A stretch of 64,000 nucleotides of DNA from the human T2T-CHM13v2.0 reference genome, Homo sapiens (GCF_009914755.1 NC_060925.1); one strand, 5' to 3'; positions 54,201 through 57,200 are shown, counted from the first letter of the stretch. The notes: a model not told the origin generated them from the letters alone. Numbers and translations are program-made.

Positions 54201-57200
54201 TGGAACAAAATAGAGGCAATATGAATACTCATCTAAGGCCAATGCCAGCACTCATGATGATAATAATAATGATACTGATGGTGACAGGAATGATAATGGG
54301 ATGGACAGGGAGCTCTGGGAGGCCAGGGCCCACTCGGCCTGTACACGACGCAGCACACAGTAAATAATTAATGCTTCTTGAATGACTGAGTGAAGTACCA
54401 AAAACTAGGCCAGCATCTAGACACAAGGTCAAGGAAGCCCAGAGAAAAGGCACTAGAGAAACCCTCCCAGGCGAGACAGCTCCTCTGACAGGGGTCAGGG
54501 GCCAGGGGTCAGGGGTCAGGGCCCGCTGAAGGACAGGGGCAGAGCTGAGTTCAGTCTCAGCTGTGCTCTGACCTGAACATGAGACCCCAGGCAAGTCTCT
54601 ACCCACCGTGAGCCTCGGTCTCCCCATTTGTGTCATAAAGGGCCTTGACAAAGGGCCCTCTGATATTTTGGGATTCTATGACACCCCTATAATCCCCCCA
54701 AATCCTTGTTACCTTGTCCCCCAGGAAGGCCCGGGGCAGCTGCCAGTAATAGAGGCTTCCAGGAAGCAGAGAGAAGCCTTCGTAGGAGAGAGAGAACTAG
54801 GAGGGAAGGGCAGGTGGTAAGAGCCGAGGGGAGCAGGGGTGGGGGTGGGAGGGCGGAGGTGGTTCCGGCAGGGGTGGACCGTCATGGGAGGGAGGCCTGG
54901 TGGCAGGGCAGAGAGACAGAGCCCCCCACTCCCACCCGACAGTGCGGGTCCTGGCCTTGCTCTTTGGACGACTTTCTTCCCAATCCCGGCCCAGGTCCCC
55001 AGCTGCTCTCTCTGGGCGTGGCCTGGGTCGGCTTCTCCTCCCATCTGGTGGGTCTCTTTTGTGGACCAACGTTTACACAGCACATCAGTAAACAATTTCA
55101 ATGGGATGGCTCCTTTCATATGTATTTGAAAGAGAGTAACCAGCCTGAGTTGGTACATGATTGATTTAAGAGAAAATTGGAAAGAAATAATAGTCCAAGT
55201 AGTTCACAGAAATTGGTGAAGTTGGTTCAGAAATGACTGAAGTCTAGAAAGCATGGTGGGTGGGGATCCCTTGATGGGCACCTTGGCACATACCTGAGAG
55301 CCTGGTGAGAAAGACAGAGAAGCTGAGGAAGAGGAGGAGGAGGAGGAAGAAGAAGGAGGAGGTGCTGCTCGCAGAGCAGCTGCAGGCTGGGGATGAGGAG
55401 AGAGCCCCTGGGGAGGGGGTTGGGGTTGGGCAGCAAAGCTGGACAGGAGCTGCCAGATCTCAGCATCCATCCGTCTCTGAGCCTCGTCCACCTGGGGGAC
55501 CAGGAGCCGAAGAGCGGCAGAAGGGAGCAGAGAGGGACAGAAAGGACGTCCGTGAGGCTTCACCTCCCCACGGGCCCAGCCAGCCACCCGCTCTGCACTG
55601 TCTGCTCACAAGTGCTGATACCTGGCACTCTGGCCCTTGTACCCACTGCCCTCTTGTTCCTCCTGAGCTAGGCGGGGATATCCCGGGATGGGTTTGGCTG
55701 CCTATGGGCCGTGACTGATGGGAGAAGCCCTACAAAGGGTGCCCAGCAAGGGAGGGGCAGAAGTGCTGGAGGCAGCCCCAGGGGCATCTGGACGGGGTTG
55801 TTGCTCCTCGGCCTGACTCTCTTTGTGTGCCCTGGCAACAGCCCAAGCCATTCATGGTTCTGGAATGTTTCCCAGGGGAGACACCAGAGCAGACCAGGCA
55901 TCAGGCTGGGGCCTGGCCTGGCATAGGGGAAATGGCCCAGGAAAGCTGGAGTCTTCGCTCAGGTGCCTGCCTGGACTCAGCTCTCTGGTCTCCTCGCTGT
56001 GGCCCTAGGTACAACCTGTCCTAGCCAGGTCCTCAGTTACCTGTGATGCCCGCTGTGCCCAGTCCCTGCCCTCTGGGGGCTCTGGGATCCTCCCAGCTGT
56101 CACGGCTGCCCGCAACTGCTCCTCTGAGAGGGATGTGCGGTTCTGATGAAATGGAGGGAGCAGGCGAGCTAAGACCTCCCAAAGTCCTGGAGCTAGAGCC
56201 ATGGGCAGGGTCCTCTACCCACGGACATGGTAGTCAGAAAGGCCCACACTAATTAGGAAGAAAGATGCATGCCCCCCCTCTCCAGGCTGGCACCCAAGGG
56301 TTAACTCCAGGCCGCCCACATGCACACAGAGGGTTCATGGTGGTTGCTTGAGAGGCAAGGCCAGGGGAACCCGGGGGGCTAGATACAGTCATGTGGATTA
56401 GCATCGGGTTAGTCTCCTTGCTACCTCAGTTGCCATTCTGACTTCAGACAGTTGGCACCAGGACCAGACCACACAGCAGGTGAGGCAAGGTGAGGCACAT
56501 ACCCTCCTGGCTCCAACCCTGGGGTCATGGGACACCGCCTGGATTCATGCAGACCCCCAATGCCTTGGGCACTGCGCATCTCCCCACGCAGGGCTGGGAG
56601 CACCCGAGAAGGCACCACGCCCCACCACACCAACTTCACACCACGCACGTCCTGGGCCTACCTGGTGAGCCCGGCGCATCCGCGCAAAGTACGCCTCCCC
56701 CTGTGGGGCGCAGGGAAATGCCAGGACAGGAGACAGAGATAGGTCTGAGAATTGCAGGACAGGGCAGCAGGGAGGCCAGGAGATAGCGAACCCCAGAAGG
56801 GAGAGGGGAGAAGGGACCAGAAGGCAGCCAGCCCCGGGAGAAGCCTGGAGTACCTGGCTGTGTCCAACGAACAGGGATAGGGCAACCCCAACCCCAGAGC
56901 GTGGGTGCCACCGGATGCCCGTGCTGCTCAAGAACACATTTGGGCAGGCTGTCCCAGAGCCCACCCCTGAGCCCCTGCCCCCGACAACACCATCACACCA
57001 TCGCCACCACCATCATCACCACCTTTCCACCAGACCCTGTTCTGGAGTAGCAAAGACAGGTTCACCTCTGACTGGCAGAGTATTTGTTTTTTTTTTTTTT
57101 TTTTTTGAGACAGGGTCTTACTCTGTCACCCAGGCTGGAGTGCAATGGTGCAATTATGGCTCACTGCAACCTCCCCATCCTGGGTACCAGCGATCCTCCC

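What the first reader, a model, noticed from the sequence alone, without database searches (positions are those of the whole stretch)
56503..56700. Furin-type RMRR site and basic cluster at the start of the cryptic insert
Seen: the 39-nt exon encodes [13 protein letters not shown], the 36-nt candidate ends ...RVGARR, and the next exon starts with an N-glycosylation sequon (NRT). Known: R-X-K/R-R is the furin/proprotein convertase consensus. Inference: including these exons could make perlecan cleavable within domain III, separating the HS-bearing N-terminal part from domains IV-V. That would be splicing-controlled processing of a basement-membrane proteoglycan.
Basis: inference. Interest (0 to 1): 0.7.

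Follow-up and report, generated by a model that had tools for sequence, protein, structure and literature searches.

The report
Conserved convertase motif in perlecan microexon
An optional 13-residue exon of the human perlecan gene carries a furin-type cutting motif that is also kept in rodent, deer, snake and more distant relatives, so it is probably a real splice-controlled processing site, although cutting has never been shown.

Summary
The 39-nt exon (56662-56700, minus strand) is real. It has AG/GT borders, lies in a phase-0 intron and encodes [13 protein letters not shown]. It opens a four-exon, frame-preserving cassette (39+102/174+198+84 nt) that inserts 141-165 residues after residue 1407, inside perlecan's third laminin-IV domain.

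Database proteins show the same cassette in eight other named species and in several unnamed perlecan-like sequences. R-X-[KR]-R is kept in 8 of 9 sequences where all four positions can be read. One very divergent fragment keeps RGKR while its flanks differ. The dunnart has RLRQ.

The next conserved exon does begin with NRT, using an internal acceptor at 56142. RefSeq lists a longer form.

The 36-nt "RVGARR" candidate has no support.

Cleavage is untested.

The laminin-IV domain sits between Cys3 and Cys4 of a laminin-EGF module, and that module's Cys2-Cys4 bond spans the cut. The expected product is therefore a two-chain, disulfide-linked perlecan, not released halves.

My searches found no paper on this cassette.

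The parts
56662..56700 (-). 39-nt alternative microexon encoding [13 protein letters not shown]. The RMRR codons are 56671-56682, and the predicted cut lies between 56671 and 56670.
   Evidence: sequence, AG/GT borders, frame. (phase 0). Listed in the gene table as an exon of other transcripts. Orthologous 13-residue exons. CpG observed/expected is 1.04, against 0.21-0.31 in the flanking introns.
56041..56142 (-). Conserved 102-nt form of the second cassette exon ([14 protein letters not shown]...RASQ). The N-glycosylation sequon is at 56134-56142 and an S-x-E stretch, SLSEE, follows.
   Evidence: The acceptor has an 85% pyrimidine tract. This form is used in human P0005 and all orthologues. 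The sequon is kept as NRT, NLT or NES.
56143..56214 (-). 72-nt 5' extension that makes RefSeq's 174-nt version of the second exon ([24 protein letters not shown]).
   Evidence: Gene table. The acceptor is weak (tag, 55% pyrimidine). Sequence upstream of the Q|N border is poorly conserved in the read-through ORFs of other species.
55294..55491 (-). 198-nt third cassette exon. [21 protein letters not shown] is predicted helical and is invariant in the mammalian sequences found. A Pro-rich stretch and a 10-Ser run (55324-55353) follow.
   Evidence: In the AF2 model, helix 104-131 has block pLDDT 58-84, highest at residues 111-130.
54713..54796 (-). 84-nt fourth cassette exon, [28 protein letters not shown]. 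It is a paralogue of the 3' end of exon 33 and restores the start of the Laminin_B profile in front of exon 34.
   Evidence: Best local match is residues 1382-1407. DNA 54711-54748 versus 58013-58050 is 79% identical. Pfam Laminin_B matches P0005 residues 194-235, E 2e-15.
56503..56538 (-). Most likely intron.
   Evidence: Absent from 11 of 11 junction-spanning proteins.
58015..58206 (-). Constitutive exon 33 (residues 1344-1407), the first part of laminin-IV domain 3. It is the upstream splice partner of the cassette.
51541..51633 (-). Constitutive exon 34 (from residue 1408), [14 protein letters not shown].... It is the downstream splice partner.
56546..56551 (-). Single UGCAUG hexamer 111 nt downstream of the microexon's donor, inside the acceptor region of the 36-nt candidate.
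   Evidence: One hexamer only and no cross-species check, so this is weak.

Best explanation
The 39-nt exon is an old, conserved, optionally included microexon of perlecan. Its selected core is A-R-x-[K/R]-R-A, a proprotein-convertase (furin/PACE4/PC5-type) recognition site.

It opens a four-exon, phase-0 cassette that loops 141-165 mostly non-globular residues out of the third laminin-IV domain. When the exon is spliced in, perlecan passing through the secretory pathway or sitting in the matrix would be cut after RMRR. That cut would yield a two-chain molecule with a new N-terminus, AHQN(glycan)RTS.... The chains should stay joined by the Cys2-Cys4 disulfide of the host laminin-EGF module and by the shared beta-sandwich, rather than coming apart.

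Shown: the exon, its frame, its conservation and the motif's conservation.

Inferred: cleavage, the acting enzyme, and the two-chain outcome.
For: Exon and frame. The exon is in the gene table as an exon of other transcripts and in the human partial HSPG2 protein P0005.

Orthologous 13-residue exons:
- Arvicanthis: REAHFARLRRAHQ
- Two Cervus species: [13 protein letters not shown]
- Crotalus: GETYYARMRRAHK
- Unnamed P0026 and P0027: [13 protein letters not shown] and [13 protein letters not shown]
- Unnamed P0045: KESSSARGKRAEQ

R-X-[KR]-R is kept in 8 of 9 readable sequences. Cat, cheetah and bat models start at the Met and read MRRAHQ. Across the nine sequences, E2, A6, R7 (P4) and A11 (P1') are invariant and P2 is always basic. 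The free X position varies (M, L or G). P0045 keeps the basic core while the rest of the exon differs; it shares 6 of 13 residues with human.

A tree of exon-33 homologues places the carriers in four separate sequence groups.

In the 4303-residue perlecan P0026, the only two R-X-[KR]-R motifs are both in the cassette. Human residues 896-4391 have none.

The exon holds 5 CpGs in 39 nt (o/e 1.04, against 0.21-0.31 in the flanking introns), which fits constraint on the CGN Arg codons.

R-H-R-R is the proven convertase site of pro-TGF-beta1 (PMC5798290, passages). PCSK6 binds heparan sulfate proteoglycans in matrix (PMC9656567, passages).

Topology: plus PMC6744579 (passages).
Against: No cleavage data exist.

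The dunnart sequence P0016 reads RLRQ, so P1 is lost.

In tetrapods the whole exon is conserved (9-12 of 13 residues). The motif's conservation there does not separate a cleavage role from a binding or structural role.

AF2 places the exon in a helix (residues 64-77, pLDDT about 59). A helix would be a poor convertase substrate, but confidence is low and the surrounding domain was incomplete.

A conserved N-glycan at P4' could hinder access.

The absence of R-X-[KR]-R from the canonical human part is not significant (shuffle mean 0.82).

Only one sequence (P0045) represents the most divergent group, and its species is unknown.
Confidence: 0.45

Rival explanations
1. The microexon is real and conserved, but the basic stretch is not cut. 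It forms part of a small helical module (13-residue exon, SEEQLRAAV, and the invariant [20 protein letters not shown] helix) that binds a partner or glycosaminoglycan. Its resemblance to a convertase site is incidental.
For: AF2 predicts three helices: 64-77, 84-92 and 104-131. Block pLDDT is about 59, about 71 and 58-84 (highest at residues 111-130) respectively. In tetrapods the whole exon is conserved, not only the arginines. The dunnart tolerates Q at P1. The downstream helix is more strictly conserved than the motif.
Against: P0045 keeps R-G-K-R but not the flanking AYF or H. The variable position is exactly the free X of the convertase consensus. Three non-mammalian sequences carry a second RVRR/RFRR 35 residues downstream. 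The model is low-confidence and built from an 11-sequence alignment.
Confidence: 0.33
2. The exon is spliced in only as rare noise or in non-productive transcripts. On this view the motif has no function.
For: The human isoforms are predicted models. No paper on the cassette turned up. A single motif arises by chance in 7-9% of shuffles. Many of the database proteins are intron-retaining or fragmentary models.
Against: Exon lengths of 13 and 34 residues are preserved, as are the frame and the sequence, in nine named species from human to rattlesnake and in unnamed perlecans. All four exons are multiples of three with no stop codon. CpG is retained.
Confidence: 0.12
3. The cassette exons belong to a separate small gene nested in HSPG2 intron 33, not to perlecan.
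For: Seven species carry stand-alone NCBI models named 'uncharacterized protein LOC...', 'putative protein TPRXL' and similar (P0008, P0009, P0011-P0013, P0015-P0017).
Against: The N-termini of these models are not conserved. They begin in intron read-through or at the Met inside RMRR, and they end in intron read-through. The human upstream frame has no ATG. The exons are phase-matched to exons 33 and 34. Two of them are paralogous to laminin-IV sequence. They are spliced into perlecan in P0005, P0010, P0026, P0027, P0030 and P0034.
Confidence: 0.05

Closest known systems
Pro-TGF-beta1 convertase site RHRR249 (PMC5798290, passages read)
   Same: Same R-X-R-R motif in a secreted matrix-associated protein. 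Mutating the P1 Arg blocks cleavage there. The fragments stay associated after the cut. From recall, not from a call: the residue after the TGF-beta1 site is also Ala.
   Different: The TGF-beta1 site is constitutive, lies in an exposed inter-domain linker, and is experimentally proven. The perlecan site is optional (splice-dependent), sits in a loop inside a beta-sandwich domain, and is untested.
Alternative splicing of unc-52/perlecan in C. elegans (PMC6266596 and PMC6613909, passages read)
   Same: Perlecan isoforms are made by regulated inclusion of in-frame exons.
   Different: Which unc-52 domains are spliced was not checked in any passage I read, and no unc-52 sequence was compared here. 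I saw no convertase motif reported for it. The review PMC6266596 contrasts unc-52 with human HSPG2, for which it lists only truncated variants.
FGF23 RHTR site gated by neighbouring glycosylation and Fam20C S-x-E phosphorylation (recalled; no call)
   Same: A convertase motif is closely followed by a glycosylation site and an S-x-E site. Here: [15 protein letters not shown].
   Different: In FGF23 the glycan is O-linked within the motif. Here there is an N-sequon at P4'-P6'. None of it has been tested for perlecan.
Furin-cut, disulfide-linked two-chain ectodomains such as MET, insulin receptor and integrin alpha chains (recalled; no call)
   Same: This is the predicted outcome here: cleavage without separation, seen only on reducing gels.
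   Different: Those sites are constitutive and lie between domains.

Membership tests
Proprotein-convertase (furin-type) substrate site | R-X-K/R-R at P4-P1 | tested here: met
   RMRR at 56671-56682.
Proprotein-convertase (furin-type) substrate site | Motif conserved in orthologues | tested here: met
   Kept in 8 of 9 readable sequences. The dunnart has RLRQ. Three further models read MRR with P4 unreadable.
Proprotein-convertase (furin-type) substrate site | P1' is not a bulky aliphatic residue (rule recalled from Nakayama 1997, not from a call) | tested here: met
   P1' is Ala in 9 of 9 sequences.
Proprotein-convertase (furin-type) substrate site | Site is solvent-exposed and flexible | tested here: inconclusive
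   AF2 on P0005 gives a helix at 64-77 with pLDDT about 59; the laminin-IV context was incomplete. The P0030 model shows the cassette mostly below pLDDT 35, but it lacks this exon.
Proprotein-convertase (furin-type) substrate site | Substrate travels the secretory pathway | not tested
   Perlecan is a secreted proteoglycan (established knowledge). Its signal peptide lies outside the window.
Proprotein-convertase (furin-type) substrate site | Convertase-dependent cleavage demonstrated | not testable with these tools
   Needs cell expression. No report in the searches.
Conserved alternative cassette exon | AG/GT borders, length a multiple of three, no stop codon, phase matching the neighbours | tested here: met
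Conserved alternative cassette exon | Both inclusion and skipping observed | tested here: met
   The selected transcript skips it and other RefSeq transcripts include it (gene table). P0034 and P0030 skip the 13-residue exon; P0026, P0027, P0010 and P0005 include it. I saw no read-level expression data.
Laminin IV / Laminin_B domain (PF00052) | Match to the Pfam profile above the curated cut-off | tested here: met
   The 84-nt exon plus exon 34 match profile positions 1-43, E 2e-15, 57 bits against a cut-off of 22.4. The end of exon 33 plus GEAY matches positions 1-16 only, E 0.12, below the cut-off.

The most novel reading that the evidence does not exclude
The cassette is a splice-controlled processing module, not just a single cut site. 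In most non-primate sequences a second convertase-type motif closes the second exon: RVRR or RFRR in three unnamed perlecans, and R-x-R-x-x-R or R-x-x-R in rodent, deer, bat, cat and dunnart. Double cleavage would release a roughly 37-residue peptide ([14 protein letters not shown]...R) that is N-glycosylated and bears an S-x-E site. The invariant [11 protein letters not shown] helix would then become the new N-terminus of the C-terminal chain. Perlecan's own heparan sulfate could recruit the HS-binding convertases PACE4 or PC5A to make the cuts. Humans would have lost the second site (RDWAQR).
Probability: 0.1. Interest if true: 0.8.

Novelty: new member of a known kind. Interest (0 to 1): 0.6.

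Why it matters
Perlecan is an essential basement-membrane proteoglycan, and HSPG2 mutations cause skeletal and neuromuscular disease. The 2018 review I read in passages (PMC6266596) lists only truncated human variants and contrasts human HSPG2 with the isoform-rich worm gene.

A cassette conserved from rattlesnake, and from more divergent perlecan-like sequences, to man would give vertebrate perlecan a regulated isoform switch and a defined processing event. It has an invariant helix, a kept N-glycosylation sequon and a kept convertase motif.

The idea is directly testable. One can look for junction reads in tissue RNA-seq, compare reducing with non-reducing gels of a mini-construct, and search for an AHQN... 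neo-N-terminus.

It also bears on variant interpretation. These exons lie in what is usually treated as intron 33.

Tried and rejected
- The 36-nt RVGARR exon is rejected.
- Origin of the 13-residue exon from the start of exon 34 ([10 protein letters not shown] against [10 protein letters not shown]) has only weak support. The DNA shares 20 of 29 bases. The Pfam profile match runs 4 residues into the exon at E 0.12. P0026 shares only 1 of 13 residues with its own exon 34, by eye. I leave this as unproven.
- The RBPMS-regulated Hspg2 exon of rat smooth muscle (PMC6613909, supplement file 6) gives a 56-bp difference between the included and skipped products. Neither primer matches the window with up to 3 mismatches. 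I could not link it to this cassette.
- The protein atlas returned no usable hit for the cassette.
- The AF2 model of P0030 was meant to show whether the exon-33 end or its 84-nt duplicate enters the laminin-IV sandwich. Both had intermediate pLDDT (about 59-69 and 30-56), so it was inconclusive.
- Lord et al. 2014 on HSPG2 transcripts in HMC-1 cells is not held. It may describe transcripts from this region.
- Ten literature searches gave no paper on this cassette or on convertase cleavage of perlecan. Subscription journals are largely outside the library.

Full report
**Observation.** HSPG2 lies on the minus strand. Summing the annotated coding exons back from the stop codon shows that the intron between exon 33 (58015-58206, residues 1344-1407) and exon 34 (51541-51633, from residue 1408) is phase 0. 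The stretch 56662-56700 is preceded by ...tttccctgcgccccacag and followed by gtaggc. In frame it reads [13 protein letters not shown], and RMRR occupies 56671-56682. The gene table lists this exon, together with 56041-56214, 55294-55491 and 54713-54796, as exons of other transcripts. All four are multiples of three (39, 174, 198, 84 nt) and none has a stop codon. Together they would insert 165 residues after residue 1407.

- *The 36-nt candidate.* 56503-56538 does read [12 protein letters not shown] between AG and GT. None of the 11 proteins that span this junction contains it.
- *The next exon starts with NRT.* This looked wrong against RefSeq's 174-nt exon, which starts RTLPMAL and has NRT at residues 25-27. 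However, an internal acceptor (...ccatttcatcag|AAC, 85% pyrimidine, against 55% for the RefSeq 'tag' acceptor) gives a 102-nt exon, 56041-56142, that starts NRTSLSEEQ. The human record 'heparan sulfate proteoglycan 2, partial' (P0005) uses this form, and so does every orthologue.

**Relatives.** Word-indexed searches with the second exon and with P0005, and a full HMMER scan of cluster representatives, returned the cassette in these named models:
- *Arvicanthis niloticus*
- *Hipposideros larvatus*
- *Cervus canadensis* and *C. elaphus*
- *Felis catus* and *Acinonyx jubatus*
- The marsupial *Sminthopsis crassicaudata*
- A *Crotalus adamanteus* perlecan model that ends just after the 13-residue exon

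Several unnamed perlecan-like proteins also carry it:
- P0026 (4303 aa) has all four exons.
- P0027 has exons 1, 2 and 4.
- P0034 skips exon 1.
- P0030 has exons 3 and 4 only.
- P0045 is a 113-aa fragment.

The exons therefore behave as independent phase-0 cassettes. Of the 33 exon-33-type junctions among all fetched proteins:
- 3 go to exon 34.
- 4 go to the 13-residue exon.
- 1 goes to the exon-2 type.
- 1 goes to the exon-3 type.
- 24 read through into intron.

The word-indexed search could not reach proteins longer than 2000 residues, so full-length mammalian isoforms were not sampled.

**The motif across species**.

| Source | 13-residue exon |
|---|---|
| Human | [13 protein letters not shown] |
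| Arvicanthis | REAHFARLRRAHQ |
| Both Cervus species | [13 protein letters not shown] |
| Crotalus | GETYYARMRRAHK |
| P0026 | [13 protein letters not shown] |
| P0027 | [13 protein letters not shown] |
| P0045 | KESSSARGKRAEQ |
| Sminthopsis | REALFARLRQAHQ |

R-X-[KR]-R is kept in 8 of 9 readable sequences. Allowing for congeners and for the close pair P0026/P0027, that is about 6 of 7 lineages. The cat, cheetah and bat models begin at the Met and read MRRAHQ, so their P4 cannot be read. I left out sequences that do not cover this exon: P0004, P0006, P0007, P0014, P0018-P0025, P0030 and P0034.

By position, E2, A6, R7 (P4) and A11 (P1') are invariant and P2 is always basic. P1 is Arg in 8 of 9. 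P3, the free position of the consensus, is M, L or G. P0045 is the most telling case. It shares only 6 of 13 residues with human, and those residues are essentially the A-R-x-K-R-A core. It is a spliced product, because a Lys codon rather than a GT-derived Val follows GDK, whereas 24 unspliced read-throughs all begin with V. Its species is unknown.

In a tree of exon-33 homologues, P0045 falls in a 12-member group separate from the mammal-like group, from Crotalus and from the P0026 group. The backbone of that tree is unresolved.

**Other indications of constraint.**
- The 39-nt exon holds 5 CpGs (o/e 1.04), while the flanking introns have o/e 0.21-0.31 and the other cassette exons 0.19-0.35.
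- Human residues 896-4391 contain no R-X-[KR]-R. This is not significant, because shuffles average 0.82.
- In the 4303-residue P0026, the only two such motifs are both in the cassette: RMRR at 1498 and RVRR at 1533.
- A single motif in the human insert would arise by chance in 7-9% of shuffles. The case therefore rests on conservation.

**The rest of the cassette.**
- The N-x-S/T sequon at the start of exon 2 is kept as NRT, NLT or NES. SLSEE or SLTEEE follows it.
- [21 protein letters not shown] is identical in every mammalian sequence found, including the marsupial. It is recognisable in P0026 and P0030 as D.EIWALIS.FS.
- The 84-nt exon is a paralogue of the last 26 residues of exon 33 (score 67; 79% DNA identity over 38 nt including the donor). 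It restores a better Laminin_B profile start ([13 protein letters not shown]) in front of exon 34.
- No Pfam family matches the remainder.
- AF2 on P0005 with an 11-sequence alignment gave mean pLDDT 47. It predicts helices at 64-77 (the microexon, about 59), 84-92 (about 71) and 104-131 (block pLDDT 58-84, peaking at residues 111-130), and nothing ordered elsewhere.
- AF2 on P0030 showed the cassette as a loop with pLDDT below 35 after one helix. It did not settle which duplicated strand joins the sandwich.

**Consequence of a cut.**
- Laminin-IV domain 3 has no cysteine. It lies between Cys1334 and Cys1530. The local pattern is C1325-x-C1327...C1334 | L4 | C1530-x-C1532...C1541-x-x-C1544...C1560, and P0026 has the same layout.
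- In the numbering of a laminin-EGF module, the domain is therefore inserted between Cys3 and Cys4.
- The Hohenester review (PMC6744579, passages read) states that these modules are bonded 1-3, 2-4, 5-6 and 7-8, and that an L4 domain is inserted without disturbing that pattern.
- By inference, Cys1327-Cys1530 spans the insert, so cleavage at RMRR would give a disulfide-linked two-chain perlecan.

**Literature.**
- The 2018 HSPG2 review (PMC6266596, passages) names only 'miniperl' and the mast-cell fragments as human variants.
- Searches for HSPG2 with microexon, cassette exon, furin/convertase or laminin IV insertion, and for four cassette peptides, found nothing on this cassette.
- The RBPMS-regulated rat Hspg2 exon (PMC6613909, passages and supplement file 6) appears to be a different event.
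- RHRR249 of pro-TGF-beta1 is a proven convertase site with the same R-X-R-R form (PMC5798290, passages).
- PCSK6 binds heparan sulfate proteoglycans at the cell surface and in matrix (PMC9656567, passages).
- Lord et al. 2014 could not be read.

**Verdict.**
- The exon and the motif are real and deeply conserved.
- The NRT-start exon is the conserved form.
- The 36-nt exon is not supported.
- A functional convertase site is the best single reading, at about 0.45. A non-cleaved helical or binding role comes next at about 0.33.
- If cleavage occurs, it should nick perlecan rather than split it.
- The exons are already in predicted RefSeq models, so this is not an unknown locus. I found nothing in print on its conservation or on the convertase reading.

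Noticed in passing
54713-54796 (-) versus 58015-58095 (-): The last cassette exon duplicates the end of exon 33 (the YWQLP..GDK start of the Laminin_B profile). With the cassette included, the laminin-IV domain is offered that strand twice. The duplicate fits the Pfam consensus (FLGDK) better than the original (YQGDK).
   Followed up: partly
55429-55491 (-), residues [21 protein letters not shown]: This 21-residue stretch is identical in all mammalian sequences found, including a marsupial. It is predicted helical, with block pLDDT 79-84 over residues 111-130. 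It is the most conserved element of the cassette, and no family matches it.
   Followed up: partly
56041-56070 (-), end of the second cassette exon: A second convertase-type motif sits here in other species: RVRR or RFRR in P0026, P0027 and P0034, and RGRAQR or KGRAQR in rodent, bat, cat and deer. Human reads RDWAQR, with Arg replaced by Trp at P4. The primate-like P0004 has also lost it.
   Followed up: partly
56143-56214 (-): RefSeq's 174-nt version of the second exon uses a weak upstream 'tag' acceptor. The 72-nt extension is open in human but poorly conserved in the read-through ORFs of other species. The conserved acceptor is at 56142/56143.
   Followed up: yes
56546-56551 (-) and 56710-56712 (-): A UGCAUG lies 111 nt downstream of the microexon, and a UGC lies about 10-12 nt upstream of its 3' splice site. 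From recall, such motifs are typical of RBFOX- and SRRM4-dependent neural or muscle microexons. These are single short motifs and I made no conservation check.
   Followed up: no
55324-55353 (-): The run of 10 Ser codons varies in length and is interrupted by Pro in other species (deer, cat and cheetah have longer S/P runs). This looks like a fast-evolving low-complexity spacer.
   Followed up: no
Proteins P0008, P0009, P0011-P0013, P0015-P0017: In seven species the cassette exons are annotated as stand-alone 'uncharacterized' or misnamed genes (for example 'putative protein TPRXL' and 'translation initiation factor IF-2-like') rather than as part of HSPG2. This is likely an annotation artefact of intron-retaining transcripts.
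   Followed up: partly
PDB entries 9i5a and 9i5b: Solved structures of a 397-residue perlecan fragment exist whose laminin-IV sequence aligns with the 84-nt exon plus exon 34 (E about 2e-8). They could serve as a template for modelling the cassette-bearing domain.
   Followed up: no
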